A stretch of 32,000 nt of DNA, from assembly GCA_025699025.1 (NCBI GenBank), contig JAILWJ010000001.1:536391-568390 (forward strand). Direction: 5' to 3'. This stretch comes from Nitrosarchaeum sp. (lineage in GTDB: Archaea; Thermoproteota; Nitrososphaeria; Nitrososphaerales; Nitrosopumilaceae). A program made the position numbers and the translations under genes. The stretch's first letter is position 1; every line of letters begins with the position of its first letter. The notes under the pieces are model-generated. The model was not told the DNA's origin. It was given only the letters and a program-made list of their open reading frames with translations, and did no database searches. Of the stretch, positions 9,558-32,000 are shown piece by piece.

Positions 9558-9563
9558 TTGTGT

Positions 9564-9944: not shown

Positions 9945-9990
9945 GAGTAGAATTTGTCACGGGTTGGCAAATATAATCTATTGAAGCATT

Positions 9991-11514: not shown

Positions 11515-11585
11515 TAAAGGATGAATTTATTTCAAAATTAAGGGTTGACTTGGGCGACAGAATAGTGAATGTTCACAATAGGACA

Positions 11586-13049: not shown

Positions 13050-13482
13050 AAGTTATCACCTGTCATTGGTCATTTTGCAATAGGATTGCATTACTATAAA
13101 AAAACTCTTGAAAATTTTTTACTTTTTCATGAATTTTAACCAATTAAACAATTCACACAATCAGAAAAAATGTATGCAGTAGGTTGTGATGTTCCCATTA
13201 CAGTCCATTACTCTGTACGGGCCATGCAACCGTTGTCGCTTGGTTTCACATTCATCACATGTTGATCAATTTTCTGATCCGCGTTCCGTACTGCATCCCA
13301 CTTGAATTGCTTCAAATAGTAATTATAATACGTCGTTGTAATATTTATTATTTATCTACTAAAACTATATAATTACTATATAGAAAAATAAATCTATTGT
13401 AAATATCATATCTTTTTATTGAATTTTATAAATATTTTCCGGTTCAAATTGGAAAAATACGGTTTGGAAGGCATCTAGGCCG

Positions 13483-16725: not shown

Positions 16726-17130
16726 GTGTTTTCATACGCTTTAGAATTTTTAAGGAATTCTAAAGCATAAATTGAAAAAACAGATAGAATGGATAATTCA
16801 TCTAATTACGAACTAGGTGTTATGGGCGAATACAGACGGGATAAAACAATCGAGTAAATTTCTCACAAACACGCATTTCGTGTTTTGATAACTTGAGATG
16901 TATGAAATTCTTTTCTTGACAAACATCAGATAAACAAGATATTTAGAATTTCTAATGATAATATCAGTCTTCACCGACTGACAGTTGTTTCTTTGAGATA
17001 GAATCGGCTTTTTGTATGCTAAACCACTCTTTTATACTAGAATGACGTATACAAGATAGGTTTTGTTGTTAGTATGATGTATGATCAAAAGAAAAAATAT
17101 GAGAAATCCTGGGTTTCGGTAAAACAATAA

Positions 17131-19924: not shown

Positions 19925-20026
19925 ATCTATTGTTTTAAAATAGTAGGCTGCCACTTATTTGTAGATGGTTTGTGTCTGATTTTCTCCATGCGTGTATGTT
20001 TTTGACACGGAAACGACATAATTCAT
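19925..20026 (-). pseudogene. Truncated homologue of the casposon Zn-ribbon basic protein (intact copy at 25050-25316)
   Basis: Minus-strand translation MNYVVSVSKTYTHGENQTQTIYK* compares with MKYVVSVSKTYTHRGNHRHKSTT in the intact gene. There is a premature stop at 19955-19957. Residual nucleotide similarity continues to about 19938. Confidence 0.7.
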
Positions 20027-20204
20027 GATACTATGCTACTGCAAACTAATAAGAACAGATTATGATGTTATTTTTTGTCTGGAAATGGCTTGCATAAAAC
20101 CACATAGATGGATCTATTGATTCAATGAGAGGTTGATAGAATACCAAAATATTGATGTGAGGAGAAGTTTATGGAGAAATTTCATGCCTGCGTAATTATT
20201 ATAT

Positions 20205-20705
20205 GTGTTTCCAGTGAAACTACTTTCTACGTTAAACAGACTCAAAAGGCACAAAATTGAGTGAGATGTTGTGGCTTTTGCTACTGACTCTGTATGCACT
20301 ACCAGAAAGGTAGCAAGTAGCTCAAATGAGCTAGGTCAGTTTAGTTTGGACAAGTCAGGAGATGACGTATTTTTCTTGCAAAACGGCATTTACCGGGTAA
20401 ACGGTAAATGGAAACAGAGAGGTTTGGGACATTTGGGAACAAAAGAGATTGAGCATCTTGATACCGTGGAAAAAGATGGAAAACTGTATTACAAGTTTAA
20501 GGTGTTACGTGCAGGGCAGTTGCGCTCTTCAATTATTCAAAATGACATTGATAATATCGGCAAGTTCTCAGAGATGACCAGACAGATTGATCTTAATGCG
20601 GATAAAAAGAGAACATGGCTGGGTCAGATCAAAACTGTCGATTGTAAAACAATAAATGATTCGATACCCATATCATTGAATCACATTAATAAAGAAAATC
20701 TCTAA
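20205..20705 (+). pseudogene. Family-B DNA polymerase fragment (C-terminal part, internally deleted, in-frame stop)
   Basis: 20265-20705 encodes VVAFATDSVCTT...GDDVFFLQNGIYRVNGKWKQRGLGHLGTKEIEHL...SLNHINKENL. By eye this is roughly 60 percent identical to residues about 449-594 of the intact PolB. 20205-20250 (VFPVKLLSTLNRLK) resembles PolB residues about 332-347. A stop lies at 20262-20264, and about 100 codons plus the whole N-terminal half are missing. Confidence 0.85.
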
Positions 20706-21022
20706 ATGATTTGTTTCTTCTTTAATTCGCTTATTACGGCTTCAGTTATTTCAGACGTCAATTGTTCAAGTTTATCTTTATATTGCATCATCACATTGTC
20801 AATTACTTCTTGGATTTTTTCTTGAGATTCTATCTTTTGTTGTGTATTTGTTTCGATGGCTCTGGCTATCGGTTCTATTTGATTTCTAACTTCTGAGAAT
20901 GCATCACGTACTGAATAATACACTTTATCAGAAACACCTCCTAGCTGCTCCTCTAAGTCTTGTTTCATTTTTTTCATTTTCTCTTCAATTTGATTAGAGA
21001 TATTTTCACCAGATGAATTCAT
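20702..21022 (-). CDS. Hypothetical coiled-coil protein (cargo of the decayed element)
   Basis: 106 aa E/K/Q-rich ORF between the PolB pseudogene and the terminal repeat. It has no counterpart in the intact element. Confidence 0.4.
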   Translation of the reverse strand: MNSSGENISNQIEEKMKKMKQDLEEQLGGVSDKVYYSVRDAFSEVRNQIEPIARAIETNTQQKIESQEKIQEVIDNVMMQYKDKLEQLTSEITEAVISELKKKQII

Positions 21023-21154
21023 CTATAAATAATTGAATTTGAACTAAATAAATATGATGATTCCAAATAAAATTACGTCAGAATTTTAGTTAGTATCACA
21101 CAGTTTTACTATTTTATGATCTTAAAGTCTTACGACAACTGTCATAATTTTATT

Positions 21155-21174
21155 CGTAAAAGGGGGGCGTTGCC
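21155..21174. repeat. Right terminal repeat of the decayed element (variant TIR with G6 tract)
   Basis: cgtaaaaggggggcgttgcc sits directly before the direct repeat. The intact right end reads cgaaatggggggattctatt. The G6 run lies 12 vs 11 nt from the shared ACTCTCTG core. Confidence 0.6.
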
Positions 21175-21195
21175 TTTTTACTCTCTGTCGATAAA
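21175..21195. repeat. Direct repeat, middle copy (target-site duplication; orphan copy of the aEF-2 3' end)
   Basis: tttttactctctgtcgataaa is identical 21/21 to 29998-30018. Its reverse complement encodes FIDRE-stop. Because of the A/T runs at the junctions, the true TSD is between about 13 and 21 bp. Confidence 0.9.
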
Positions 21196-21218
21196 AATAG
21201 AATCCCCCCATTTCGTGC
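21196..21218. repeat. Left terminal inverted repeat (perfect core)
   Basis: aatagaatccccccatttcgtgc is the exact reverse complement of 29977-29999. Imperfect similarity (blocks tgct, tttt, ggacta) continues to about 21250 vs 29945. Confidence 0.9.
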
Positions 21219-21312
21219 CTGAGTTTGTGCTAGTTTTGGTAATGGACTAGAACATAACGAAGATTATGATTTGTTGGAGAATAGTTATAACGAAATTACA
21301 AATCGATAATGT

Positions 21313-21561
21313 ATGTCTGATGATTATGACTTTCAAAAGAAATTAGCAAAGTATCAGTTAAAGGCTACTGCGATTTCGATTTTTGGAAGTACAATAATTG
21401 CATTAGGAATTGCTTTGGCTTCGATTTCTGTAACTATTGAAAATCAAGGAATGTCAATTTTAATTCTCACAATAGGAATAATGCTAATTCTATCCTCGTT
21501 ACTTATAGTTGTGATAAACTTGTGGCGAATCAGTAAACACATAGATAGAATCAACAAATGA
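21313..21561 (+). CDS. Small two-helix membrane protein, translationally coupled to cas1
   Basis: 82 aa with two hydrophobic helices. The stop overlaps the Cas1 start (ATGA at 21558-21561). Confidence 0.55.
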   Translation: MSDDYDFQKKLAKYQLKATAISIFGSTIIALGIALASISVTIENQGMSILILTIGIMLILSSLLIVVINLWRISKHIDRINK

Positions 21562-22562
21562 CCATTAAAGGAAAACAAAACCATTACAACGTAAAGTTTC
21601 TCAAAGGATACGGTCATTCAATTTCTGTAAAAGACTCCAGAATAATTCTAAAATCCAATCATGACCCATTCTCAGAGCCTGAGATTGAATCATGGTATGT
21701 CAAAAATATGCCATACGAAAAGATAATCCTTTCAGGTAAAGGCTACGTCTCAACTGAGGCATTATCAATACTATCTCAGAACAACCGTAACGTCATATTA
21801 TTAGACAATCACGGAAAACCTGTAACTTTCATGAATGGCATGATGGATTCACTCACTACAACAAAATATCGCATGGCTCAATATGATACATTTCGAGATG
21901 AATCAAAGTGTGAGTATTTGCGTCAGCAAATCATACAAAGTAAGAAAGAATCACAATTGAAACTTCTCAAATTAATTGGAAGTGATGTTACTGAACTGCC
22001 AGATTCAGAACACCTTTCTGCCAAAGTCTACTGGTCTGAATTCGCTAAATTCATTCCTGAAAAATATCAGTTCCATTCCAGAAATCAGAGTTTCATCAGA
22101 ACTAGCAAAAATAATGCAACTGATGTAATCAATGCTTTATTGAATTATGGTTATTCCGTTTTAGCTGGAGAAATCTCAAAATTTGTTTGTGGAATGGGAT
22201 TAGACCCATACTTTGGATTCATGCACAAATCTCATACGGGTTTTCAACCGTTGGTCTATGATATCATAGAGCCGTTTAGGTGGTTGGTCGATTATTCTGT
22301 GTATCAAATAGCAAACAATGGCAGTGACAGGCAGAAAATAAAACTAAAAGAGTACAGTTACACAAAAGATGGAACTGTGGTTATGGAATATTCTCTGATC
22401 AAGAGGTTTTTGGAAATGCTGGAAAGACAATTTCAAAAGGAGAGAAAATATGATTTTAGACATGGGAAGAAGACAAAGGATGGTTTGAAATCTGTACAGG
22501 AAATTACGATTGTAAAGACCATGATTCAGAATTTAGTAGAGTTTTGTCAAAAACATGTTTAG
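21558..22562 (+). CDS. cas1: Cas1-family integrase (casposase), stand-alone
   Basis: 334 aa. Cas1 signature blocks are NALLNYGYSVLAGE (E205, nt 22170), GLDPYFGFMHKS (H223, nt 22224) and PLVYDIIEPFRWLVD (D235/E238, nt 22260). These supply the conserved E-H-D metal-binding triad. The N-terminal beta-rich part (ILSGKGYVSTEALSILSQNNRNVILLDNHGKPV) fits the Cas1 N-domain. Confidence 0.9.
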   Translation: MTIKGKQNHYNVKFLKGYGHSISVKDSRIILKSNHDPFSEPEIESWYVKNMPYEKIILSGKGYVSTEALSILSQNNRNVILLDNHGKPVTFMNGMMDSLTTTKYRMAQYDTFRDESKCEYLRQQIIQSKKESQLKLLKLIGSDVTELPDSEHLSAKVYWSEFAKFIPEKYQFHSRNQSFIRTSKNNATDVINALLNYGYSVLAGEISKFVCGMGLDPYFGFMHKSHTGFQPLVYDIIEPFRWLVDYSVYQIANNGSDRQKIKLKEYSYTKDGTVVMEYSLIKRFLEMLERQFQKERKYDFRHGKKTKDGLKSVQEITIVKTMIQNLVEFCQKHV

Positions 22563-22589
22563 TACATTTCCAGTTTGATTTATAATAAT

Positions 22590-23300
22590 TCATTGCTCAA
22601 ATGACGGGATATTTTGGATGATAATTATCTCATTTGCTTTGACTATTGATTCAAGCATATCGTGTACGTCTTCAACTAGATTAAGATAATTATCCCATGT
22701 ATCAAAGGACATGTTTTTTCCATCAATAAAGTCAAACTGTTTATTTTTGTAATGTATTGTTGTGTTTCCCGGATTATCTGGAAGATATACTCCATTATTA
22801 TGAAACGAATTTCTGTAAAGTCTTAGAATATCTAACAATTTTTCATATTCATTTGAATCTAATGTGATATGTCTTGGACTTAACAACCAACTATACATAT
22901 TTTTGAAACTTCTCTTTGTATTTTCATATGCTGTATGATCCATAGATTTCACTATGGCTCTGAATGAGCTTTCTATCATTGAAAATAAAAAGAACACCAA
23001 ACTGAAACGAAGTGTTTTGTTAAAAGATTCTAATGTTTCATCAATTATGATTTTTGTTTCATTATTTGTAATGTCTCCAAATTGTTTCCACCAATCTTTT
23101 TGTTGTGCATGGTCTCTAGTTAAAACTGCACCCAATTCGGTTGAACGCAATACATTTTTGCATTTTATAAAAATTGCCAATCTTGCATCAGTTTTTTTCC
23201 AATTTGGATTTTGTTGTTGTAATGAAAAATATGTATCACAATATTTGTTTTTAATTTTTTCAAGTCTAATAGTTACAGATTTCCATTTTATGTCAGTCAT
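22590..23300 (-). CDS. Hypothetical cargo protein (possible HEPN/Abi-like helical domain)
   Basis: 236 aa. The block LLDILRLYRNSFHNNG resembles the R(N)xxxH helix of HEPN/Abi proteins, but the spacing is non-canonical. Confidence 0.5.
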   Translation of the reverse strand: MTDIKWKSVTIRLEKIKNKYCDTYFSLQQQNPNWKKTDARLAIFIKCKNVLRSTELGAVLTRDHAQQKDWWKQFGDITNNETKIIIDETLESFNKTLRFSLVFFLFSMIESSFRAIVKSMDHTAYENTKRSFKNMYSWLLSPRHITLDSNEYEKLLDILRLYRNSFHNNGVYLPDNPGNTTIHYKNKQFDFIDGKNMSFDTWDNYLNLVEDVHDMLESIVKANEIIIIQNIPSFEQ

Positions 23301-23312
23301 ACAAAAATGAAA

Positions 23313-23340
23313 ATTTATATGAACTTAAGCATATTGATTA
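23313..23340 (-). promoter_or_regulatory. Repeated promoter-like block, copy 1 (upstream of 22590-23300)
   Basis: atttatatgaacttaagcatattgatta. On the minus strand it reads ...caatatgcttaagttcatataaat, with a TATA-like box about 15-25 nt before the ATG. Confidence 0.45.
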
Positions 23341-23354
23341 GAACCGAATATGTT

Positions 23355-23699
23355 CTACTGAGGAACAAATTGGAGAAGTAAAAGATATCCTACAATCCAA
23401 CTAATACCGTAAATCAACAATCCTACTATCCAATGACCAAAAATTCGTATTGGAGCAAATATGGATACAAGAAAAGCTATTATAGATATCGCAATTAACC
23501 AGTTTCTCATCACATCACAATTGTACTGAGTTTGTTCATTATCCAATAATTCCAATTCACAGAATTCATCTAGGACAAAATTTGCAATAGCATATTGATT
23601 TGTGGGCACTTCAAATGTGGTTGAAATTCCAAATAGAATTCCTGCAATAAACCCTGCTTTAAAAACAAGAATACCTGTTGCAATTACACCTTTTGCCAT
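23355..23699 (-). CDS. Small membrane protein (cargo)
   Basis: 114 aa with 3-4 hydrophobic segments. Confidence 0.5.
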   Translation of the reverse strand: MAKGVIATGILVFKAGFIAGILFGISTTFEVPTNQYAIANFVLDEFCELELLDNEQTQYNCDVMRNWLIAISIIAFLVSIFAPIRIFGHWIVGLLIYGISWIVGYLLLLQFVPQ

Positions 23700-23707
23700 A
23701 ACATTAC

Positions 23708-23740
23708 AAATTTTTGTATGAACTTAAGCATATTGCACAT
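23708..23740 (-). promoter_or_regulatory. Repeated promoter-like block, copy 2 (upstream of 23355-23699)
   Basis: aaatttttgtatgaacttaagcatattgcacat. The core tatgaacttaagcatattg (23717-23735) is identical to 23318-23336. Confidence 0.45.
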
Positions 23741-23863
23741 CAAGATTAAATACAAATTTTGCAATCATACCCATGCTCGAAGAAGCAATCCAAGAGTTCA
23801 TGGCATTTGTAGGCAGGTTCTGTCTGGATAATCTGCCATATCTTACATGCAGTTCATAAAATT

Positions 23864-24076
23864 CTATTTTTTCTTTTTTTGAATCTTTGGTTTTGCTAAA
23901 ACCTTACCAAGAAAAAGCGATCCAAATATGATTGGAAGTATTCCAAAACCCCAAAATTCGTATGCTGTAAGTGGGTTTACATCTTCATACGAAACTAGAA
24001 TATTTGCAATTACGATTAATCCAATACACACTAAACCAAAGTTAATACAAATCGAGATAATTTTAGAGAGTTTCAT
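23864..24076 (-). CDS. Small two-helix membrane protein (cargo)
   Basis: 70 aa with two hydrophobic helices and a KPKIQKKKK tail. Confidence 0.45.
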   Translation of the reverse strand: MKLSKIISICINFGLVCIGLIVIANILVSYEDVNPLTAYEFWGFGILPIIFGSLFLGKVLAKPKIQKKKK

Positions 24077-24099
24077 TCTTACTCATTAAATAACATATA

Positions 24100-24128
24100 A
24101 AATTTGTTTATGAACTTAAACCTGTTGG
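24100..24128 (-). promoter_or_regulatory. Repeated promoter-like block, copy 3 (divergent region 24077-24162)
   Basis: aaaatttgtttatgaacttaaacctgttgg. This is a degenerate version of the same block (tatgaacttaaacctgttg). Confidence 0.4.
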
Positions 24129-24162
24129 AAAATGAAATAAATCAGTATTCAGTGGTTTGATT

Positions 24163-25053
24163 ATGAAATGGATTTTTTTGTTAATTGCATTTGGTTTTTT
24201 CAGTCCTGTATATGCAGAAGAATCTACGTTAAATGACATCCAAACACAATTAGATAATCAGATAAATCAGCAAAATCTAAAGAAATTAGAACAAAGAGTT
24301 TCAAATCTAGAAAACCAATCATCATTTGAAGACCAGTTTGTTTCAAGCGAAGAATATACTAAATTAATGAGTCGATTACATATTTTAGAAAATAATGATC
24401 AATTGAAAAATGAACTGATTTCTTTGAAAACCGTTCTTGATACAGAACTATCAGAAATGAATAGTTCAATGACAATTGCACAAAAAACTGCCACTGATTC
24501 ATTTTTGTTAGGAATTTACATTTCGATTGGGTTTGCAGGAATCGCAATAGGAGCTACAATGCTGTATTCTAGAAAAATGGAAATACAAACAGAATTGATA
24601 AAAACAGACATCAAAACACGGATTAGACCAATTTTAAGCAGAAAAGAATTAGAAAAAAAAGTTAGGAATTCAAATGAACAATTAGTAAAACATGTATTCA
24701 CTCTAACTCGACATAAAGCATTATTTCATTTTCAAAACACTGGAACATTGCCAGCCGTAAACATTTCACGAAATTATTATGCAGAGATCAGAGAAACACC
24801 ATCAGATGTAATCAAATTGAATCCTAAAGAATATGTTGATGTGATTAAAATGGCAACCTTAGCTCCAAATGAATATTATAGTACAGATGTTTTTTGGTTA
24901 GACCCATGTTTTGATAATGCCGTTGATAGAAATAATTGCTATTTTGGATTAGTTATTTGGTATCACGATTCCAAAGGGACAAGATATTATTATCATATCG
25001 AAGGATTTTTTGATCATGGGGAATTGATGATAACTCATGTTGATATGAATTAA
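24163..25053 (+). CDS. Membrane-anchored coiled-coil protein (cargo, hypothetical)
   Basis: An ATG at 24163 is preferred over the TTG at 24157. Signal/anchor MKWIFLLIAFGFFSPVYA, then a Q/N/E-rich coiled coil, a central TM (FLLGIYISIGFAGIAIGATMLY) and a C-terminal globular part. Confidence 0.55.
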   Translation: MKWIFLLIAFGFFSPVYAEESTLNDIQTQLDNQINQQNLKKLEQRVSNLENQSSFEDQFVSSEEYTKLMSRLHILENNDQLKNELISLKTVLDTELSEMNSSMTIAQKTATDSFLLGIYISIGFAGIAIGATMLYSRKMEIQTELIKTDIKTRIRPILSRKELEKKVRNSNEQLVKHVFTLTRHKALFHFQNTGTLPAVNISRNYYAEIRETPSDVIKLNPKEYVDVIKMATLAPNEYYSTDVFWLDPCFDNAVDRNNCYFGLVIWYHDSKGTRYYYHIEGFFDHGELMITHVDMN

Positions 25054-25316
25054 AATTCACAATACGGACATTCTAATTCTTCTTTACTAGATTTCACAAA
25101 TCCCAAAAACGCATTTCCACAATCAGTACAAAAATACTTTAATCGTTTTCTCTTCTGAGCCTTGTAGTACAATGCCTGCAACCAACTAACTCTCTGAGTT
25201 CTAAAATTTCCATCTTCATCATAGTAATAGATATGCCATCTCTTCTTAGTTGTTGATTTGTGCCTGTGATTTCCACGATGTGTGTAAGTTTTTGACACTG
25301 AAACAACATACTTCAT
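25050..25316 (-). CDS. Basic Zn-ribbon protein conserved in both casposon copies
   Basis: 88 aa, rich in K/R/H/Y. C-terminal CTDC ... CPYC Zn ribbon. The N-terminus and upstream region are homologous to 19938-20065. Confidence 0.6.
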   Translation of the reverse strand: MKYVVSVSKTYTHRGNHRHKSTTKKRWHIYYYDEDGNFRTQRVSWLQALYYKAQKRKRLKYFCTDCGNAFLGFVKSSKEELECPYCEF

Positions 25317-25327
25317 GATACCTCAAT

Positions 25328-25358
25328 GCTACTTCAAACTAATAAGAACAGATTATGA
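25328..25358 (-). promoter_or_regulatory. Highly conserved non-coding block upstream of the Zn-ribbon gene
   Basis: gctacttcaaactaataagaacagattatga matches 20035-20065 (gctactgcaaactaataagaacagattatga) at 30 of 31 positions. This is far above the similarity of the flanking coding DNA. On the minus strand, cttattag lies about 25-30 nt before the ATG (TATA-like). Confidence 0.45.
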
Positions 25359-25916
25359 CTATTCTAAATTCTCAATCGTGCCTTTACTTAACAAAGAATC
25401 AGGAGCATGAACAAAAGGAACTTGTTTTTTTGAACCAGTATTTTTTGTAAACTTTGCAATTGATTGCATCAACAAAAGTGTATCACGTAGCTGTTCCCGT
25501 ATGTGCCATTTGAATTCTTCTGGCATTAGCTTCATCAGACCTTCTAATCCAATGTTAAAGAAATTATAATACATGATAAATGAGAATATTTTGTCAGGAT
25601 CCTCGTCAGATTGTTTTTGATCAGCAATTGATGAAGCATATTTTAAAGTGGTCATAAAATCTTCAAAACTTCTACTTGATAGAATTTTTGCTTTGTAGGA
25701 ATTAGGCAAGGGTGAAAAGGCATAATGAAAATCTGAAAATGACTGTTCGATCTTTGATTGAATTTCTCGATAAAACCTATATTTGTTTGAAATTGGAAAA
25801 ACTTCTGGATTCCAAAGATTAGCATATTCGTCATGACTAATCAAAGTTAGTTTTGGATTTGTCTTTTTTATTTCATTCATAATCTTTTCTTGCTTTGCAG
25901 TTTGTCTTTTTTTCAT
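25359..25916 (-). CDS. Hypothetical protein (cargo)
   Basis: 185 aa ORF. No family recognised. Confidence 0.5.
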   Translation of the reverse strand: MKKRQTAKQEKIMNEIKKTNPKLTLISHDEYANLWNPEVFPISNKYRFYREIQSKIEQSFSDFHYAFSPLPNSYKAKILSSRSFEDFMTTLKYASSIADQKQSDEDPDKIFSFIMYYNFFNIGLEGLMKLMPEEFKWHIREQLRDTLLLMQSIAKFTKNTGSKKQVPFVHAPDSLLSKGTIENLE

Positions 25917-25950
25917 TATTATTATTCTATTTTAGACAAATTTAAGCATA

Positions 25951-26199
25951 ATGTTCGTATATACAGTAATGAAGTCAAAAACAAACCAAAAACAAAGAGC
26001 AGACGAGCCAATCGAGACAGACTTTGGCAACAGGCAGGTATCCCACCAGAATTTTTCAAGAATTGTGGCACTGCCTAAAATTGCTCTGCAAAACTGTGGG
26101 ATAACGTCACAGGTATCTGTGAAACTAGTCCTGCAAAACGGAGAAAAATTTCTCAAAATTACTCCGGCAAAAACAAAAGGAGGTGAACATACTGAGTGA
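25951..26199 (+). CDS. Putative AbrB/SpoVT-like DNA-binding protein
   Basis: 82 aa (alternative start at 25969). SRIVALPKIALQNCGITSQVSVKLVLQNGEKFLKITP fits the looped-hinge-helix pattern (v.iPk.i...lgi..g..v.....g..i.i.P). It is the first gene of the plus-strand block that ends with PolB. Confidence 0.4.
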   Translation: MFVYTVMKSKTNQKQRADEPIETDFGNRQVSHQNFSRIVALPKIALQNCGITSQVSVKLVLQNGEKFLKITPAKTKGGEHTE

Positions 26200-26527
26200 A
26201 ACTACCTATCCTCCATTTTTGAAATGGGGAGAATATGCCTCTGATGATCCAGAAAATCCAGATGTACTAGAACTCAAGGTTGCAGATACTGAGACATTTG
26301 AGACGGAATTTTCAATCAATGTAATGGCATTGATCAAGGAAAAGAAATCATGGATAGAATACAACATCCCACTGAAGAGCCACGAATCAAAGAATTCATC
26401 ACTGCTAAACCAGTGGAACAGATTCTCAAAGAATCTCAAGAAAGGAGACAGACTAGTTCTAAAGACGTGGCTTGGAACATCAAAGAACTCTAGGAAGATC
26501 AGGAGGTACAGTCTAGAGAAACTCTAG
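26183..26527 (+). CDS. Hypothetical protein (replication-module neighbour)
   Basis: 114 aa with a GTG start preceded by aaaggagg. No family recognised. Confidence 0.45.
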   Translation: MNILSETTYPPFLKWGEYASDDPENPDVLELKVADTETFETEFSINVMALIKEKKSWIEYNIPLKSHESKNSSLLNQWNRFSKNLKKGDRLVLKTWLGTSKNSRKIRRYSLEKL

Positions 26528-26530
26528 ACA

Positions 26531-26545
26531 TTTTTTTCTTTTTTT
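26531..26545 (+). terminator. Oligo-T tract (archaeal-type terminator candidate)
   Basis: tttttttcttttttt lies immediately after the stop at 26525-26527. Confidence 0.35.
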
Positions 26546-26555
26546 GGTGATTGTG

Positions 26556-26873
26556 ATGATGGAGGATAAAGACAAGCTTGTAAAACAATTGGATGCCCTA
26601 AAGATTTTTCCAAACAACAGACTAGTAAGAGATCTAAAGAATCAGATTAAAAATAAATTAAAAAAATTAGAAACTGTAAAACCTGCAAAACCAAAGAGAG
26701 ACCCAAACGTCTCACGGTCAAGCAAGCTCAAGAGATATCACAACTACATGAGACAGATAAGAAACAACTTTCCAAATTTATCATACAGCCAGATAAGAAA
26801 ACAGTTCTCAAAAAGAAAGCGTGGCGATGACGTATCCATCCCTGATGCAGTATGGCAGAACCCATCCCCGTAA
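26556..26873 (+). CDS. Small highly basic protein overlapping the PolB start (DNA-binding or terminal-protein candidate)
   Basis: About 105 aa from the ATG at 26556. KPAKPKRDPNVSRSSKLKRYHNYMRQIRNNFPNLSYSQIRKQFSKRKRG is loosely HMG-box-like (PKR...aromatic...P.LS). It overlaps the polB start by 22 nt in another frame. Confidence 0.5.
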   Translation: MMEDKDKLVKQLDALKIFPNNRLVRDLKNQIKNKLKKLETVKPAKPKRDPNVSRSSKLKRYHNYMRQIRNNFPNLSYSQIRKQFSKRKRGDDVSIPDAVWQNPSP

Positions 26874-28636
26874 CTGACTGCAAGAGCCTCAGGCGAGTCT
26901 TTACAAAAAAGCCTCAGAACAGAGACCCTGCAAAGTCGCACAAGAGAAAAGTCTATGCAATAGACACCGAGACGTATCAAGGAAACATCTTTCTGATTGC
27001 AGATTCAGACGGCAGATTCTTGGATAAGATCACGCCTGAATCGTGCCTAGACTGGCTATTTTGCAGGAAATACGAGGGAAATTGGTGCTTTTTTTACAAT
27101 CTTGGCTATGATGCAGAAGTCATACTCAAACTATTGGGTTCGGAACTATTCAGGTATAGAAACACTGGCAAGCTCAAATTTTCATTTCAAAAATATACCA
27201 TAGAGTATCATCCAAACAAGTGCCTCAAAATCTCAAAGGGTCACCACTCTGTGATATTTTACGATGTAGCACAGTTTTATCATGCAAGTCTGGCAGATGC
27301 ATATCAGAACAACATCAAGAAATTACCAAAGAAATATCTGGAAACAAAATCCAAGAGAAACCAGTTCTCTGTAACATACTACAAGAGAAACACAAGGCAG
27401 GTAAGAGACTATTGCATACAGGATTGCAAGCTGACAAAAGAACTAGCCATCCACTGGATCAAACTATTTCATGACGCATTTGGGTTCTATCCTGCAAGAT
27501 GGGTTAGTTCAGGATACTTGGCTGAAAAAGTCTTGATCAACAACAACATAGAGTTTCCAAAGTTTGATGATACGCCATATGAGGTGCAGGAGATGGCATT
27601 TGCCTCATACTATGGGGGAAGATTTGAGATTACAAAGCGTGGATATATTGGGACTGCATACAAGTATGACATAAACTCTGCATATCCATACTCTCTGACA
27701 AAAATTCCAGACCTGACAAAAGGAAGATGGATTAAGAGAAAGTCAATCCACCCAAAAGCAGAATTGGGTTTTTTCAGAATTATCGCAGACGTTCCAGACT
27801 GCAAGTACATTCCTCCATTTCCGTTTCGTACCAATGGACTCATTATTTTTCCCAGTGGGAAATTTGAGACATACGTTACATTAGATGAACTCAAAGTTGC
27901 AGACAAGAGATACTACAAAATTCTAGATTCCTACCAGTTCATTCCAGATGGAAAAATAACGTATCCTTTCAAAAAATTTGTAGAGTCAATGTATGAGAAA
28001 AGATTACAATTAAAGAAAGAGGGCAATCCGTTGCAACTGCCAATCAAGATAATACTGAATTCCATATATGGCAAGACTGGTCAGAAAACAAACAGAATAA
28101 TGGGAAATCTGTTCAATCCCGTGATATTTGGTACCATTACAGGCATGACCCGTGCGTATCTCTATGACTTTGTCATGAAAAATGCCATAGAAAACCAAGT
28201 GGTGTTTTTTGCAACAGATTCAGTATGCACTACTGTTCCACTGGATGTTGATTCAGACAGACTGGGAGAGTTTTCTTTGGAAGAAAAGGCAGACGATGTA
28301 TTTGTGTTGCAGAACGGATTCTATCGGTTTAATGGCAAATGGAAGCAGAGAGGTATTGGCAAACTAGGCAGTAAAGAGATCGAACATCTTGAGACATTTG
28401 AGAGAAATGGAAAGTTGTACTATCGATTCAAGGTTTTGAGAAACTCTAGGTTGAGATCATCAATATTGCAGGATTCAATATCTCAGATTGGTAGGATTAG
28501 AGAGCATGTTAGGGAGGTTAATTTGAACGCAGATAGGAAAAGGTTATGGTTAAATCAACTAGACAACATTAATTCAAAAAAATATTTAGATTCATTTCCA
28601 CTTTCTTTAAACCATTTAAACAAAAAGAACATTTGA
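26852..28636 (+). CDS. polB: Family-B DNA polymerase (compact, protein-primed-like type)
   Basis: 594 aa. ExoI YAIDTET (D38/E40), ExoII FFYNLGYDAEVIL, ExoIII YCIQDCKLT. Pol motif A YDINSAYPY (D273, nt 27668), motif B KIILNSIYGKTGQ, motif C FFATDSV (D456, nt 28217). Confidence 0.9.
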   Translation: MAEPIPVTDCKSLRRVFTKKPQNRDPAKSHKRKVYAIDTETYQGNIFLIADSDGRFLDKITPESCLDWLFCRKYEGNWCFFYNLGYDAEVILKLLGSELFRYRNTGKLKFSFQKYTIEYHPNKCLKISKGHHSVIFYDVAQFYHASLADAYQNNIKKLPKKYLETKSKRNQFSVTYYKRNTRQVRDYCIQDCKLTKELAIHWIKLFHDAFGFYPARWVSSGYLAEKVLINNNIEFPKFDDTPYEVQEMAFASYYGGRFEITKRGYIGTAYKYDINSAYPYSLTKIPDLTKGRWIKRKSIHPKAELGFFRIIADVPDCKYIPPFPFRTNGLIIFPSGKFETYVTLDELKVADKRYYKILDSYQFIPDGKITYPFKKFVESMYEKRLQLKKEGNPLQLPIKIILNSIYGKTGQKTNRIMGNLFNPVIFGTITGMTRAYLYDFVMKNAIENQVVFFATDSVCTTVPLDVDSDRLGEFSLEEKADDVFVLQNGFYRFNGKWKQRGIGKLGSKEIEHLETFERNGKLYYRFKVLRNSRLRSSILQDSISQIGRIREHVREVNLNADRKRLWLNQLDNINSKKYLDSFPLSLNHLNKKNI

Positions 28637-28642
28637 ATTATT

Positions 28643-29923
28643 ATGATTTTAACATTAGAAAACTGCGCACATTATTTAGATGCAATAGAAAACTTTGTTG
28701 ATTCTGAATGGTTAAAAATACAAACTGATAAAATAATTGAGTATTATAATACAGTAAACAATACAAGCATTTTAGGAAAATTAGAAGATTATTCAAATCC
28801 ATTGGCATTGTTAATTTATCAAGCAGACAAAACATTATCTCGATTAACAGATGATAAACACGCGCATTCATCTGTTGAATTAATTAAAGCAGTTTCATTA
28901 GGAATGTATTTGGAAAAATTAACTGAAGCAAATCTTGATTTTAAAGATAAATTAACTGATTTGACATCCTCGGATAAAAAATCATTTGAAAAAATAATTT
29001 TTGAGTTAGACATAGCAACTGCATTTTTGAATTCAGGACATTCTGTTGAATTTATCAAAACAGACTCCACACACAATAATCGTACTGCTGATTTACGAAT
29101 AGACGGAACAATAGAAGTAGAATGTAAGAAAAAAGATAAACTCACTAAATTCGACATTCAAAACCAAGATCGATGGAACACATTAAATCGTAAACTCCGA
29201 GCATTTTTTAATGAACAAAAAAAATATCCATTCATCTATATTTTTGTAAAAAATGATCTTTCTCATGAAATTATTCAGAAAATTCTAAAACAAATTAGAA
29301 AAATGACGCATAACAATGAAACCGCATATTCAGATTCAGAAATAAAAATCATGATTGAAGAGTTGTGTAAAAATGACGAAATCATGTCATTAGGATTTCA
29401 AGCAAGAAATAGTGATGAGTTGATGGGAAGAATCAATCCCAAAATAATTGACACCATAATAAAATCCAAGATAAAATACACTCATTTGATGGATTATGAA
29501 TTAATACATCCAGATCATTTTTCAGATGATTCAAAAATTCAAATTGTAAATGAGAATGTGTTTGTAAGTGAACTAAGACGTTATGTTTTCAAATCTTTGA
29601 GAAATGTTCATCGAATGAATGGCATTATATCATCAATTAAAAATGCAAGAAACCAACTTTCTGGAGATACATGTGGTATTATTTGTGTGAATTTTACTCA
29701 TTTAACCGATACTATGATAGAACAAGATTACAAAAATTTGACAAGTTTGATAAATCAGTTTCTTAAAAATAATTCAAAAGTTTCAGCAGTTATTGTTTCT
29801 TCAGAATTCTATTCCACTTCTAGAGATATGAGATTTATTCATAAAGCGCTAATAATTCGAAATCCATTGGCACGCCATAAACTCCCAGATAATTTTCAAT
29901 TCCTTAATGATGTTAGCATGTAA
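28643..29923 (+). CDS. Hypothetical 426-aa cargo protein with PD-(D/E)xK-like motif
   Basis: Very AT-rich ORF. IIFELDIATAF...HSVEFIKTD...TADLRIDGTIEVECKKK gives an E ... D(150) ... E(158/160).K(162) arrangement, like restriction-endonuclease-fold nucleases. Confidence 0.55.
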   Translation: MILTLENCAHYLDAIENFVDSEWLKIQTDKIIEYYNTVNNTSILGKLEDYSNPLALLIYQADKTLSRLTDDKHAHSSVELIKAVSLGMYLEKLTEANLDFKDKLTDLTSSDKKSFEKIIFELDIATAFLNSGHSVEFIKTDSTHNNRTADLRIDGTIEVECKKKDKLTKFDIQNQDRWNTLNRKLRAFFNEQKKYPFIYIFVKNDLSHEIIQKILKQIRKMTHNNETAYSDSEIKIMIEELCKNDEIMSLGFQARNSDELMGRINPKIIDTIIKSKIKYTHLMDYELIHPDHFSDDSKIQIVNENVFVSELRRYVFKSLRNVHRMNGIISSIKNARNQLSGDTCGIICVNFTHLTDTMIEQDYKNLTSLINQFLKNNSKVSAVIVSSEFYSTSRDMRFIHKALIIRNPLARHKLPDNFQFLNDVSM

Positions 29924-29976
29924 TTTTCATAATATTCGATAATTTTTAGTCCTAACGAAAAACAGCAGTGAGTTAC

Positions 29977-29999
29977 GCACGAAATGGGGGGATTCTATT
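29977..29999. repeat. Right terminal inverted repeat (perfect core)
   Basis: gcacgaaatggggggattctatt is the exact reverse complement of 21196-21218. Confidence 0.9.
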
Positions 30000-30018
30000 T
30001 TTACTCTCTGTCGATAAA
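29998..30018. repeat. Direct repeat, right copy (target-site duplication; functional 3' end of aEF-2)
   Basis: tttttactctctgtcgataaa is identical to 21175-21195. It covers the aEF-2 codons F-I-D-R-E and the stop (30001-30003). Confidence 0.9.
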
Positions 30019-32000
30019 CTCGTTGGCAGTTGGTGGGTCTGGTGCAAGTCCCTTTCTCTTCCTAATGTCTGCAACGGCAGCTGCCAGCATTGACTTTGGA
30101 ACTTCAGTCCATGCCTTAAATGACGTATTCCAGGTTGCACGTCCTGCAGTCTGGCCCCTCATCTCCTCAGATAATGTAAATGTCTCTGAAGCTGGAATCT
30201 CGCCGACAATGATGCTTGATGCGCCCTTTTGTGCCATGTCAAGTACCTTGCCCCTCTTGCCTGAAAGAACGGTAGCGACGTTTCCAACCAGGTCAGTTGG
30301 CACACGAACCTCGATTGCCAGTGTAGGCTCTAGCACTGCAACGCCTGCAGTGAGCAGTGCGCCCATGCATGCCCTGCGTGATGCAGGCCCTAGCTGAGAC
30401 AGTCCCCTGTGTGCAGTGTCCTCGTGTGGTACAAAGTGGGTAAATGTAAACTTGCAGTCCCTCATCTGCTCTTTGCACAGCGGACCTTCCTTCATGACCT
30501 CCTCAAATCCTGAATTAATAGAATCAGTAGACTCTTGCACAAACTGGACACCCTTGGTGCCGTTAATCAAAACATTTCCGCGAGAGTCAAACTTCATGAC
30601 GCGCTTAATGGTATCAGTGTCCCAGCCGGCGCCCTTTAGCAACTCGGCTACAACCTTCTTGTCTTTCATATCGCTTATTTCGCCTGTTCGCAACATGTTT
30701 GCAATTTTTGGCTCTAGTGGCTCTACTTTCATGAATATCTTGTTGTGTCTGTTTGGAGACTTTGACATGATTGGCTCACATGTGCCCTTTACTGTCTCCC
30801 TGTAGTTGATCAGCGGCTCTGATGTCACGATATCTACTTTGGCATCCTGGATACGGTGTGTTGCAACATCAAGGTGCAAGACGCCCATTCCTGCCATGAT
30901 GGTCTCGCCGCTTTCTTCATCAATCTTTACTACCAGGTTTGGATCCTCAATGGTGAGTTGTTTTAGCACTTCGACTAGCTTTGGCAAGTCTTTGGGGTGC
31001 TTTGGCTCTATTGCAACCTGAACCACGGGTTCGGACACGTACTTTACCCCCTCAAACATTTGAATTCCCTTAATTGAAGAGATGGTGTTTCCTGCCCGAG
31101 CTTCGGTCAGCCCCAACAGTGCGGGAATGTTTCCGGCTCCAAGTTCTGCGACCTGCTCTCTCTGGTTTCCCATGAAAAAGTTGACAGACTGGACCCTTCC
31201 CTCTCTTTTTGAATCAATAATGTTAATTGTTTGCCCGTCTTTTATTGTGCCAGAGAACAGTCGTCCGATTGCAACCGGTCCTGCCGCAGGATCCAGCACC
31301 ATGTTTACAATCATCATGATTGTTGGCCCATCATCGCTGCATGCAAGCAGTGCCTTTCCGACATCAGATTCCAAGTCTCCCTTCCAGATTTGCGGGATTC
31401 TATACTTTACTGCCACGTGTGGAGGCGGATGGTGCTTTACAACCATTCCCAAGACGGCATCGGCCAGAGGCGCCTTTTCTACAAGGTCCTGGACCTTTTC
31501 GTTTTGGTATGCGTCAATGACATCCTTGAATGTAATTCCTTTTTCTTTCATCACGTCAATGTTGATTGCCCACCTGTCTTTTGCAGAGCCAAAGGTGACG
31601 CTGGCATCCTGAATCGAGACACGCCACTTGTCCTTGTATTCAGGTTCTGCATATGTGTCAATTAATTGGTTAAAGTTTGACACCACTTCTGCCAGCTGCT
31701 GCTGCATCTTTTCAGGGGTGAGTCTTAGTTCTTTGATGAGCCTGTCTACCTTGTTGATAAACAATACAGGCCTTACCCTTTCCTCAAGTGCCATCCTGGT
31801 TACAGTCTCAGTCTGAGTCATGATTCCCTCAACAGAGTCACATACCACTACTGCTCCATCAATTGCCCTGAGGCTGCGAATGACCCTGCCACTAAAGTCC
31901 ACGTGTCCGGGGGTATCAATCATGTTAATGACGTATTCTTTTCCTTTTTGTGAAAAGTGCAAAGTTACATTTGCCTGATAAATTGTAATTCCTCTTGCCT
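30001..32000 (-). CDS. fusA: Translation elongation factor aEF-2 (5' end outside window)
   Basis: The reading frame stays open to the window edge (ARGITIYQANVTLHFSQKGKEYVINMIDTPGHVDFSG). GTPase G-motifs, domains II-V and the H...G diphthamide-region style sequence (HEDTAHRG) are present. The ORF ends ANEFIDRE-stop. Confidence 0.95.
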   Translation of the reverse strand, partial: ARGITIYQANVTLHFSQKGKEYVINMIDTPGHVDFSGRVIRSLRAIDGAVVVCDSVEGIMTQTETVTRMALEERVRPVLFINKVDRLIKELRLTPEKMQQQLAEVVSNFNQLIDTYAEPEYKDKWRVSIQDASVTFGSAKDRWAINIDVMKEKGITFKDVIDAYQNEKVQDLVEKAPLADAVLGMVVKHHPPPHVAVKYRIPQIWKGDLESDVGKALLACSDDGPTIMMIVNMVLDPAAGPVAIGRLFSGTIKDGQTINIIDSKREGRVQSVNFFMGNQREQVAELGAGNIPALLGLTEARAGNTISSIKGIQMFEGVKYVSEPVVQVAIEPKHPKDLPKLVEVLKQLTIEDPNLVVKIDEESGETIMAGMGVLHLDVATHRIQDAKVDIVTSEPLINYRETVKGTCEPIMSKSPNRHNKIFMKVEPLEPKIANMLRTGEISDMKDKKVVAELLKGAGWDTDTIKRVMKFDSRGNVLINGTKGVQFVQESTDSINSGFEEVMKEGPLCKEQMRDCKFTFTHFVPHEDTAHRGLSQLGPASRRACMGALLTAGVAVLEPTLAIEVRVPTDLVGNVATVLSGKRGKVLDMAQKGASSIIVGEIPASETFTLSEEMRGQTAGRATWNTSFKAWTEVPKSMLAAAVADIRKRKGLAPDPPTANEFIDRE

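What the first reader, a model, noticed from the sequence alone, without database searches (positions are those of the whole stretch)
21196..21250. Terminal inverted repeats: 23-bp perfect core with a C6/G6 tract and an imperfect extension to about 55 bp
Left end 21196-21218 (aatagaatccccccatttcgtgc) is the exact reverse complement of 29977-29999. Beyond the core, the two ends still share blocks (tgct, tttt, ggacta) out to about 21250 and 29945, with one indel. The homopolymeric C6/G6 run sits 6-7 nt from the tip. It is also the most obviously retained feature in the terminal repeat of the neighbouring decayed copy (21162-21167). This suggests it is a recognition determinant for the Cas1 integrase.
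Basis: seen in the sequence. Interest (0 to 1): 0.7.

Follow-up and report, generated by a model that had tools for sequence, protein, structure and literature searches.

The report
Casposon terminal repeats with conserved C-tract
These are the inverted-repeat ends of an intact Cas1-plus-polymerase transposon (a family 1 casposon) inserted at the end of the aEF-2 gene of a Nitrosarchaeum archaeon; the element is ordinary for its kind. Its C6/G6 tract is conserved across the family, yet published assays on a near-identical end show Cas1 does not need it to integrate DNA.

Summary
The perfect inverted repeat is 27 bp (21192-21218 / 29977-30003). Weaker homology runs to 21269 / 29927, matching 61 of 77 columns with one indel.

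It bounds an 8,810-bp family 1 casposon at 21193-30002. The element carries Cas1 and a protein-primed PolB, is flanked by a 13-bp target duplication (ACTCTCTGTCGAT), and sits in the 3' end of aEF-2. The host is a Nitrosarchaeum MAG. Cas1 is 85% identical to the N. koreensis NitAR1-C1 casposase, and the end sequences are nearly the same.

The true tip is A5 at 21193, so C6 starts 11 nt in.

Across 55 unique family 1 termini, two blocks are near-invariant: the A5 tip and a C4-11 run starting at position 12-13. The 6-7 nt between them vary.

The Cas1 reading is not supported for integration. Wang et al. 2021 scrambled nt 1-25 of the 30-nt koreensis end without loss of integration. Here, end sequence follows the nearest PolB relative and not the nearest Cas1 relative.

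My best guess is that the tract serves protein-primed replication or excision (about 0.4, inferred).

The neighbouring G6 belongs to a truncated second casposon with a different, well-preserved end subtype.

This is a new member of a known kind.

The parts
19943..21179 (+). Truncated remnant of a second family 1 casposon, lying distal to aEF-2. It holds a PolB C-terminal pseudogene at 20247-20711. Its right TIR is at 21135-21179 (G6 at 21162-21167, T5 at 21175-21179) and belongs to the 'GGCAACG' subtype.
   Evidence: tblastx gives 59% aa identity between 20247-20711 and 28178-28642. 19954-20065 is 82% identical to 25242-25358. 21130-21180 is 90% identical to the L088 (N. adriaticus) TIR; nhmmer finds a terminus with its tip at 21179 on the minus strand, E=3.6e-6. 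The left boundary is approximate; homology to the host O-methyltransferase region ends near 19942.
21180..21192 (+). Left copy of the 13-bp target-site duplication, ACTCTCTGTCGAT (ATCGACAGAGAGT in aEF-2 sense).
   Evidence: Searches show the exact direct repeat. The 13-bp length is taken from in vitro mapping for N. koreensis (PMC8464041) and from non-aEF-2 sites whose host flanks lack A5/T5 (L103, L106).
21193..21218 (+). Left TIR, perfect core: AAAAATAGAATCCCCCCATTTCGTGC. A5 tip at 21193-21197, variable block TAGAAT at 21198-21203, C6 at 21204-21209.
21219..21269 (+). Left TIR, diverged inner part ('alpha' form, CCTGAGTTTGTGCTAGTTTT...).
   Evidence: The same alpha form occurs in L116 and L101.
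21558..22562 (+). Casposase: a Cas1 homologue of 334 aa with no C-terminal HTH domain.
   Evidence: PF01867, E=1.6e-42; 85% identity to the N. koreensis AR1 casposase. R113, K117, K184, Y197 and Y234 are conserved.
25951..26873 (+). Three small overlapping ORFs just upstream of PolB. This is the conserved family 1 module; their function is unknown, and they are candidate replication accessory or terminal proteins (inference).
   Evidence: One search lists the ORFs; 80% nt identity to the same module in L082 and L086. Krupovic 2019 (PMC6563490) describes 3-4 conserved genes upstream of pPolB.
26852..28636 (+). [quoted passage not shown]
   Evidence: PF03175, E=1.2e-28; 85% identity to the NitAR1-C1 PolB; the best matches among viruses are the pPolBs of His1, His2 and ABV.
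29927..29976 (-). Right TIR, diverged inner part ('beta' form, GCGTAACTCACTGCTGTTTTTCG...).
   Evidence: The beta form occurs on both arms of L082 and L086.
29977..30002 (-). Right TIR, perfect core. G6 at 29986-29991 and T5 3' end at 29998-30002 on the + strand.
30003..30015 (+). Right copy of the 13-bp TSD. It encodes the last codons of aEF-2 (I-D-R-E plus the T of the stop codon).
30001..31962 (-). 3' part of the aEF-2 gene, which is the integration target. Its TAA stop codon is made of T13 of the TSD plus the first two A of the casposon tip.
   Evidence: EF-G/EF-2 domains; the protein ends ...TANEFIDRE*.

Best explanation
**What it is.** The feature is the pair of terminal inverted repeats of an intact 8.81-kb family 1 casposon at 21193-30002 in a Nitrosarchaeum genome.

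**How it integrates.** The casposase (Cas1) joins the element's 3'-OH ends (...GGGGGGATTCTATTTTT-3') to two positions 13 bp apart at the 3' end of aEF-2. The target reads TTT | ATCGACAGAGAGT | AAA. This produces the 13-bp duplication.

**What the A5/T5 tip does.** It rebuilds the aEF-2 TAA stop codon in either orientation. It also re-creates TTT...AAA flanks around both TSD copies, which allows tandem arrays such as the one seen here.

**What the C6/G6 tract is.** It is one of two near-invariant blocks of family 1 termini, which follow the pattern A5, then 6-7 variable nt, then C5-7. It is therefore under selection.

**What the tract probably does.** It is not needed for Cas1-catalysed strand transfer; that was shown for the near-identical N. 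koreensis end. The most likely role (inferred, about 0.4) is as the subterminal recognition element of the replication origin used by the element's protein-primed PolB. In that model the T5 3' end provides the terminal reiteration needed for sliding-back initiation. A role in excision or end synapsis is the main alternative.
For: **Identity of the element.**
- Cas1, pPolB and aEF-2 were identified by Pfam.
- Cas1 is 100% identical to a Nitrosarchaeum MAG protein and 85% to the N. koreensis casposase.
- PolB is 85% identical to the NitAR1-C1 PolB.
- The koreensis ends are almost identical, and that element also sits at aEF-2.

**TSD length and tip position.**
- Wang 2021 mapped a 13-bp TSD with a TTT leader.
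- At every tandem junction, exactly 13 bp separate a T5 from an A5.
- Non-aEF-2 sites have host flanks with no A5/T5.

**Conservation.**
- All 12 TIR pairs found without any motif assumption have the pattern.
- There are 55 unique termini. Information content is 2.0 bits at positions 1-5 and 1.9-2.0 bits at positions 13-16, against 0.6-1.0 bits at most positions between (6-8, 11-12; 9-10 reach 1.3-1.6).
- The pattern includes elements whose Cas1 is only 38-63% identical, from Nitrosotalea, Nitrosotenuis and Nitrososphaera.

**Against a Cas1 strand-transfer role.**
- Scrambling nt 1-25 of ssTIR30 had no effect, and random oligonucleotides were integrated.

**Link to PolB.**
- The Cas1-proximal TIR is 75.7% identical to the TIR of the PolB nearest neighbour (permutation p=0.0005).
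- It is 64.4% identical to the TIR of the Cas1 nearest neighbour (p=0.96). The mean over all pairs is 67.7%.
- The closest Cas1 pairs are window-L083 (88%), L086-L094 (90%) and L001-L104 (82%). In each pair the two elements have different TIR subtypes.
- Arms are kept identical over 46-179 bp in most relatives, as in protein-primed replicons.
- Beguin 2019 also concluded that casposon TIR conservation beyond 5 nt must serve excision or replication.
Against: - No experiment links family 1 PolB to the TIR, and no terminal protein has been identified.
- The C run is invariant, so covariation cannot show which protein reads it.
- Global Mantel correlations are weak and do not favour PolB: TIR-Cas1 r=0.22, p=0.03; TIR-PolB r=0.17, p=0.07.
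- The sample is 14 elements and they are not independent.
- TIR and PolB could simply be inherited together while cas1 is swapped or homogenised among co-resident elements.
- Related pPolB viruses (His1, His2, ABV) show terminal reiteration but not the A5-N6-C6 pattern.
- The in vitro assays used oligonucleotides ending at TTCTA rather than the natural T5. They tested integration only.
- PolB-less derivatives such as L089 keep the tract.
Confidence: 0.8

Rival explanations
1. One reading: the C6/G6 tract is a recognition determinant for the Cas1 casposase. It would act at a step other than strand transfer, for example end binding, synapsis, or cleavage during excision. It lies one helical turn in from the reactive 3' end.
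For: - The tract is strictly conserved at a fixed distance (position 12-13) from the tip in every family 1 lineage.
- Cas1 is the only protein present in all elements, including PolB-less ones such as L089, L109 and L002.
- Excision has never been assayed.
- The published assays used ends lacking the natural T5.
Against: - The koreensis casposase integrates TIR oligonucleotides with the G6 region scrambled, and also random DNA, at wild-type efficiency. Donor specificity is low.
- The family 1 casposase has no HTH domain.
- TIR subtype does not follow Cas1 relatedness.
Confidence: 0.3
2. The tract is the binding site of another factor. Candidates are one of the small conserved casposon proteins encoded upstream of PolB, or a host protein. 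The factor would organise the ends or regulate the element.
For: - A conserved module of 3-4 uncharacterised ORFs accompanies PolB in family 1 (Krupovic 2019; window 25951-26873).
- Many 'type B' ends have a short dyad (GGxxxxCC) that overlaps the start of the C run.
Against: - The dyad is absent from the TAGAAT subtype found in this window.
- No DNA-binding domain was detected in the ORFs scanned (two of the three upstream ORFs were not scanned).
- No direct evidence exists.
Confidence: 0.15
3. The tract has no function of its own. It would be an inherited relic, or a product of homopolymer mutation bias.
For: Run length varies from 4 to 11, as expected from slippage.
Against: - The adjacent 6-7 nt have diverged almost completely (0.6-1.0 bits at most of those positions) while the run core stays at 2.0 bits. 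This holds across elements whose Cas1 is only 38% identical.
- C6 runs are otherwise absent from the 32-kb window.
Confidence: 0.05

Closest known systems
NitAR1-C1, the family 1 casposon of Candidatus Nitrosopumilus koreensis AR1 (Krupovic 2014; Beguin 2019; Wang 2021)
   Same: - Cas1 is 85% and pPolB 85% identical.
- The end has the same tip, AAAAATAGAATCCCCCCATT.
- The target is the same: the last codons of aEF-2.
- The TSD has the same 13-bp frame, with A1, A11 and T13 conserved and a TTT leader.
- A 'GGCA..CCCCCC' TIR remnant follows the distal TSD copy in both genomes.
   Different: - The host genus is Nitrosarchaeum.
- The element is inserted in the opposite orientation relative to aEF-2.
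- The TSD is ATCGACAGAGAGT rather than ATTGATAAAGAGT, so the proposed ATAA 'ruler' reads ACAG here.
- The arms are perfect for only 26 bp, against 66 bp in koreensis. The two arms here carry different inner sequences, so the element is a mosaic.
- The cargo genes differ.
Tandem family 1 casposons NitNF5-C1/C2 of Ca. Nitrosopumilus adriaticus NF5 (Krupovic 2019)
   Same: - There are two casposons in tandem at the same ef-2 site.
- The remnant's TIR and PolB fragment in this window are 81-90% identical in nucleotide sequence to the adriaticus element.
   Different: Here the distal element is truncated to about 1.2 kb and keeps only one end.
Family 2 casposons (Aciduliprofundum boonei, Methanosarcina mazei)
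   Same: - A Cas1 casposase integrates the element with a TSD of about 14 bp next to a leader-like motif.
- An oligo-C/G motif is present in the TIR.
   Different: - In family 2 the C run (TCCCC-3') is the 3' terminus itself and is required by the casposase.
- In this element the run is subterminal, of opposite polarity (G on the transferred strand), and dispensable for integration.
- The family 2 casposase has an HTH domain, its PolB is not protein-primed, and its target is a tRNA gene.
Inverted terminal repeats of protein-primed replicons (phi29, PRD1, adenovirus, His1/His2)
   Same: - The polymerase is a pPolB.
- The two terminal repeats are identical.
- The 3' end has reiterated nucleotides (T5).
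- A conserved subterminal block lies about one helical turn from the end. This resembles the adenovirus core origin at positions 9-18 (from my own knowledge, not tested here).
   Different: - This element is integrated in a chromosome.
- No terminal protein is known and no linear form has been shown.
- The termini of His1, His2 and ABV do not share the A5-N6-C6 pattern.

Membership tests
Family 1 casposon | Cas1 homologue (casposase) without a C-terminal HTH domain, not linked to a CRISPR array or other cas genes | tested here: met
   PF01867, E=1.6e-42, 334 aa. 85% identity to the NitAR1 casposase. No CRISPR-like array in the window. No other cas domain among the ORFs scanned.
Family 1 casposon | Protein-primed type family B DNA polymerase | tested here: met
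   PF03175 (DNA_pol_B_2), E=1.2e-28. 85% identity to the NitAR1-C1 PolB. Nearest viral homologues are the pPolBs of His1, His2 and ABV.
Family 1 casposon | Terminal inverted repeats flanked by a target-site duplication | tested here: met
   27-bp perfect inverted repeat, of which 26 bp lie in the element. Perfect 13-bp TSD inside a 21-bp direct repeat.
Family 1 casposon | Thaumarchaeal host and insertion in the 3' end of a protein-coding gene, typically ef-2, without disrupting it | tested here: met
   Nitrosarchaeum MAG. The aEF-2 ORF ends ...FIDRE* with its stop codon rebuilt by the element tip.
Family 1 casposon | Conserved block of small uncharacterised genes immediately upstream of pPolB | tested here: met
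   ORFs at 25951-26873. They are colinear with, and 80% identical in nucleotide sequence to, the module in L082 and L086.
   12 of 12 unbiased TIR pairs. In 53 of 54 unique termini the C run starts at position 12-13.
   Published result for the near-identical koreensis end: scrambling nt 1-25 of the 30-nt TIR had no effect on integration (PMC8464041). That G6 lies within nt 19-24 is my inference from the genome sequence. Excision and end binding were never tested.
   TIR identity to the Cas1 nearest neighbour is 64.4%, below the overall mean of 67.7% (p=0.96). The closest Cas1 pairs have different TIR subtypes. The global Mantel correlation is weak (r=0.22, p=0.03).
Protein-primed replication origin (ITR type) | pPolB encoded by the element; identical inverted terminal repeats; reiterated nucleotides at the 3' end | tested here: met
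   A5/T5 is invariant in 52 of 55 unique termini; three have A6.
Protein-primed replication origin (ITR type) | TIR sequence co-varies with the polymerase | tested here: inconclusive
   The nearest-neighbour test is positive (75.7%, p=0.0005). The global Mantel test is weak (r=0.17, p=0.07). With n=14, co-inheritance cannot be separated from co-evolution.
Protein-primed replication origin (ITR type) | Terminal protein covalently linked to the 5' ends of a linear extrachromosomal form | not testable with these tools
   No terminal protein is recognisable. No related free linear contigs were found in IMG/VR.

The most novel reading that the evidence does not exclude
Family 1 casposons divide the labour between two proteins. 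The casposase reads only the chromosomal target (TTT plus the 13-bp site) and follows the host. The conserved A5-N6/7-C5-7 terminus is the origin read by the protein-primed PolB module, and it follows PolB lineages. Donor specificity in vivo would then come from replication or excision producing the only suitable DNA ends, not from Cas1. On this view the window's element, with different inner arms at its two ends, is a recent Cas1-side/PolB-side recombinant caught before its arms were homogenised.
Probability: 0.35. Interest if true: 0.6.

Novelty: new member of a known kind. Interest (0 to 1): 0.4.

Why it matters
Family 1 casposons are the Cas1 transposons thought to be closest to the ancestor of CRISPR spacer acquisition. 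How they are excised and copied is unknown. How the right DNA gets chosen for integration is also unknown, because their casposase is nearly indifferent to donor sequence in vitro.

This work adds three points:
- The termini carry a strictly conserved subterminal C/G run that the integration reaction does not need.
- The natural 3' end is T5 in all lineages. The TTCTA used in the published assays is specific to one lineage.
- TIR sequence travels with PolB rather than with Cas1.

Together these give a concrete sequence element and a clear experiment for the missing replication and excision steps. The element in this window is otherwise an ordinary new example.

Tried and rejected
1. **Hairpin or other ssDNA structure at the ends.** Six termini were folded as DNA. 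MFE was 0 to -3 kcal/mol and z-scores were -0.8 to +0.9. Rejected.
2. **A shared terminal pattern in pPolB viruses.** His1 starts GTGTGTTATAGC, His2 starts TGATGAATAGG and ABV starts TCCCCCCTTGGGGG. They show terminal reiteration only, with no A5-N6-C6 pattern.
3. **Free linear or viral forms in IMG/VR.** A PolB single-protein search found none. A PolB alignment found only distant hits. Exact end patterns gave 15 hits with no TSD-like flanks (the confirming profile and Cas1/PolB scans of these loci did not complete).
4. **Two metagenome contigs starting at the tip.** L093 starts T+AAAAATAGAATG and L111 starts AAAAGGGAAAG. This could suggest linear forms. It is equally what an assembler produces when the two inverted arms collapse, so I do not count it as evidence.
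5. **The genome-contig scan with a Cas1 alignment.** Close relatives were fetched by exact-protein look-ups instead.
6. **A clean split of PolB identity by TIR subtype.** First impression; it did not hold once more elements were added. One apparent 100% PolB match was an artefact caused by two overlapping loci from the same contig (L095/L097); it was corrected.
7. **Rfam scan of the window.** No match. There were no tRNA genes and no CRISPR-like tandem array.
8. **Oligonucleotide table of Wang et al.** The supplement is not held. The position of G6 within their ssTIR30 is therefore inferred from the genome sequence.

Full report
**1. The observation**

Positions 21196-21218 are the exact reverse complement of 29977-29999, as reported. 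Perfect complementarity extends four bases further out, to 27 bp at 21192-21218 / 29977-30003, sequence TAAAAATAGAATCCCCCCATTTCGTGC. It is the top inverted repeat between the regions flanking the Cas1 gene (BLAST E=1.6e-9). About 1e-7 such pairs would be expected by chance in 32 kb.

Homology continues beyond the core. Local alignment of the next 80 nt scores 32, against 14.9 +/- 2.6 for shuffles; 1 of 2000 shuffles reached it. The blocks TGCT, TTTT and GGACTA and the single indel are as described. Homology ends at 21269 / 29927, with 61 of 77 columns identical over the whole repeat.

C6 (21204-21209), G6 (29986-29991) and a third G6 (21162-21167) are the only C6/G6 runs in the window.

It overlaps the inverted repeat.

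**2. What the repeats bound**

Between the repeats lie these genes:
- a Cas1 gene at 21558-22562 (PF01867, E=1.6e-42);
- a protein-primed-type family B polymerase at 26852-28636 (PF03175, E=1.2e-28).

Immediately outside the right end, on the minus strand, is the 3' part of an EF-2 gene.

The Cas1 is 100% identical to a protein from a Nitrosarchaeum sp. MAG. It is 85% identical to the biochemically characterised casposase of Ca. Nitrosopumilus koreensis AR1, with R113, K117, K184, Y197 and Y234 conserved. The PolB is 85% identical to the NitAR1-C1 PolB. Its nearest viral relatives are the pPolBs of His1, His2 and ABV.

The window contains no CRISPR array, tRNA gene or Rfam match.

This is a family 1 casposon as defined by Krupovic et al. 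2014 (PMC4046053) and 2019 (PMC6563490). Those elements typically target the 3' end of ef-2.

**3. Where the ends are**

From sequence alone the boundary is ambiguous, because the inverted and direct repeats overlap.

For N. koreensis, Wang et al. 2021 (PMC8464041) mapped integration in vitro. The TSD is 13 bp (ATTGATAAAGAGT), preceded by a TTT leader. A1, A11 and T13 are critical.

The koreensis locus (L082) reads GAGTTT-ATTGATAAAGAGT-AAAAATAGAATCCCCCC ... GGGGGGATTCTATTTTT-ATTGATAAAGAGT-AAAAAGGCAGTCCCCCC. The window has the same layout with ATCGACAGAGAGT as the TSD.

Two genomic observations support the same frame:
- At every tandem junction, exactly 13 bp separate a T5 from an A5.
- At insertion sites outside ef-2 (L103, L106), the host flanks beyond the 13-bp repeat have no A5/T5. 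The A5 therefore belongs to the element.

The resulting coordinates are:

| Feature | Coordinates |
|---|---|
| Left TSD | 21180-21192 |
| Element (8,810 bp) | 21193-30002 |
| Right TSD | 30003-30015 |

The tip is AAAAA.

The aEF-2 stop codon TAA is made of T13 of the TSD plus the first two A of the element. The gene is therefore restored whichever way round the element inserts. Both orientations occur among relatives.

**4. Is the C/G tract conserved?**

Yes. I fetched the loci of eight close Cas1 relatives by exact-protein look-up. I also used 42 metagenome loci and a few more distant genomes.

- **Motif-free search.** Comparing the sequence upstream of Cas1 with the reverse complement of the sequence downstream found TIR pairs in 12 elements. 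All 12 read A5, then 6-7 variable nt, then a C run of 4-7.
- **Profile search.** A profile built from those arms found 70 termini, 55 of them unique.
  - The A run is 5 in 52 of them.
  - The C run starts at position 12 or 13 in 53 of 54.
  - Its length is 4-11, with a mode of 6.
- **Information content.** It is 2.0 bits at positions 1-5 and 1.9-2.0 bits at positions 13-16. At most positions between (6-8, 11-12) it is 0.6-1.0 bits; positions 9-10 reach 1.3-1.6.

The variable block falls into a TAGAAT-type group, which includes this window and koreensis, and a G-rich group (GGCAGT, GGGAAAG, GGCAAAG and others). The pattern holds in Nitrosotalea, Nitrosotenuis and Nitrososphaera elements whose Cas1 is only 38-63% identical.

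The profile search is biased towards the pattern. The inverted-repeat search is not.

**5. Does Cas1 read it?**

The published biochemistry says no for the integration step. With the koreensis enzyme, a 30-nt TIR oligonucleotide with nt 1-25 scrambled integrated as well as wild type. Random oligonucleotides were also integrated, and only GC-rich 3' ends performed poorly.

From the genome sequence, G6 occupies nt 19-24 of a 30-mer ending in TTCTA. This is my inference, because the oligonucleotide table is not held.

Beguin et al. 2019 drew the general conclusion that TIR conservation beyond the last five nucleotides must serve excision or replication.

Those assays used ends stopping at TTCTA. 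The comparison here shows TTCTA is specific to one subtype, whereas T5 is the universal 3' end. Excision and end binding have never been tested.

**6. What does the TIR follow?**

For 14 elements with Cas1, PolB and a defined Cas1-proximal end, I compared the first 45 nt of the TIR with protein relatedness.

| Comparison | Mean TIR identity | Permutation p | Same TIR subtype |
|---|---|---|---|
| PolB nearest neighbour | 75.7% | 0.0005 | 11 of 14 |
| Cas1 nearest neighbour | 64.4% | 0.96 | 5 of 14 |
| All pairs | 67.7% | - | - |

The three clearest close Cas1 pairs are window-L083 (88%), L086-L094 (90%) and L001-L104 (82%). In each pair the two elements carry different TIR subtypes, while their TSDs are similar (identical in window-L083).

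This fits a model in which Cas1 follows the host target and the ends follow the replication module.

The caveats are real:
- n is 14 and the pairs are not independent.
- Global Mantel correlations are weak for both proteins: r=0.22 (p=0.03) for Cas1 and r=0.17 (p=0.07) for PolB.
- Co-inheritance of TIR and PolB, with cas1 exchanged between co-resident elements, would give the same picture.

Because the C run never varies, no covariation test can say directly which protein reads it.

**7. The most likely mechanism**

*Shown:*
- This is an intact family 1 casposon whose ends match a biochemically characterised relative.
- The C/G run and the A5 tip are under purifying selection.
- The run is not required for Cas1 strand transfer in vitro.

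*Inferred (about 0.4):*
- The run is the subterminal element of the origin for protein-primed replication.
- The T5 3' end serves sliding-back initiation.
- Replication through panhandle-like intermediates keeps the two arms identical. Relatives have perfect or near-perfect identity between arms over 46-179 bp.

*Rivals:*
- a Cas1 role in excision or synapsis (about 0.3);
- another end-binding protein (about 0.15);
- no function (about 0.05).

A hairpin role is rejected.

**8. The neighbour**

The G6 at 21162-21167 belongs to the right end of a second casposon (tip at 21179; nhmmer E=3.6e-6). Only about 1.2 kb of that element remains. It holds a PolB C-terminal pseudogene at 20247-20711, which is 59% identical in amino acids to 28178-28642. 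It is joined to the host O-methyltransferase region near 19942.

Its TIR is AAAAAGGCAACGCCCCCCTTTTACGAATAAAATTATGAC... This is a different subtype, preserved over about 45 nt and 90% identical to the TIR of an N. adriaticus casposon. It is not a worn copy of this element's TIR in which only G6 survived.

The koreensis genome and a second Nitrosarchaeum MAG (L083) have the same arrangement, with the intact element next to aEF-2 and a remnant end beyond the distal TSD. In L083 the subtypes are swapped relative to this window.

**9. Novelty**

The element is a new member of a known kind. Tandem family 1 casposons at ef-2 were already described in Krupovic 2019.

I did not find three points stated in the papers I read:
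- the family-wide A5-N6/7-C5-7 architecture;
- the argument that the natural 3' end is T5 rather than TTCTA;
- the association of TIR sequence with PolB rather than with Cas1.

These points are modest but directly testable.

Noticed in passing
window 21219-21269 vs 29927-29976; Cas1 region 21693-22442; PolB module 25943-28692: The element is a mosaic. The inner part of the left arm is an 'alpha' form, also seen in L116 and L101. The inner part of the right arm is the 'beta' form, found on both arms of the N. koreensis and N. sediminis elements. The Cas1 region best matches L083/L116 (84-85% nt) and the PolB module best matches L082/L086 (80% nt). This suggests a recent recombinant between two casposon lineages whose arms have not been homogenised.
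   Followed up: partly
window 30003-30015 and 21180-21192: The 5'-ATAA-3' 'molecular ruler' proposed for the N. koreensis TSD (positions 5-8) reads ACAG in this element's TSD. Across relatives these positions read A[T/C]A[A/G]. A1, A11 and T13 are kept in nearly all elements (not in L009).
   Followed up: partly
window 23299-23336, 23698-23735, 24090-24127: Three copies of a 38-nt direct repeat, about 395 bp apart, lie in the cargo region. Each covers the start codon and upstream region of a consecutive minus-strand ORF (22590-23300, 23355-23699, 23864-24076). On the minus strand it contains ...TTCATATAAATTT..., which looks like a reiterated archaeal TATA-type promoter.
   Followed up: no
L086 (Ca. 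N. sediminis AR2) about 17045-17055: The aEF-2-proximal end of this casposon lacks the TSD and the tip. aEF-2 ...GTTAACGAATT runs straight into TCCCCCCATTTCG, and the gene is called at 739 aa instead of 730. It looks like a 24-nt deletion between GAAT(T) microhomologies, which would immobilise that end.
   Followed up: no
L089 (N. oxyclinae) 9295-13379; also L109 and L002: These are short, PolB-less casposon derivatives. The L089 element is 4.1 kb, with 179-bp TIRs that are 99.4% identical. It carries Cas1 plus a cyclase and PycTM pair (Pycsar-like defence cargo). The A5-N7-C6 end is retained.
   Followed up: no
L093 position 1-2; L111 position 1: Two metagenome contigs begin within one base of the predicted casposon tip. 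This could reflect linear forms, but it is equally explained by collapse of the two inverted arms during assembly.
   Followed up: partly
window vs L083 (Nitrosarchaeum MAG GCA_025698765.1): The two Nitrosarchaeum genomes share upstream synteny (GNAT, Penicillinase_R-like and 487-aa genes) and the same TSD, but they hold reciprocal arrays. The window has a GG-type remnant plus an intact TAGAAT-type element. L083 has a TAGAAT-type remnant end plus an intact GGGAAAG-type element.
   Followed up: partly
window 21001-30000 vs flanks: The casposon cargo regions are markedly AT-rich (GC 0.29-0.33). The upstream host DNA is at GC 0.40-0.45 and aEF-2 at 0.47-0.49. The PolB module is intermediate at 0.38-0.40.
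   Followed up: no
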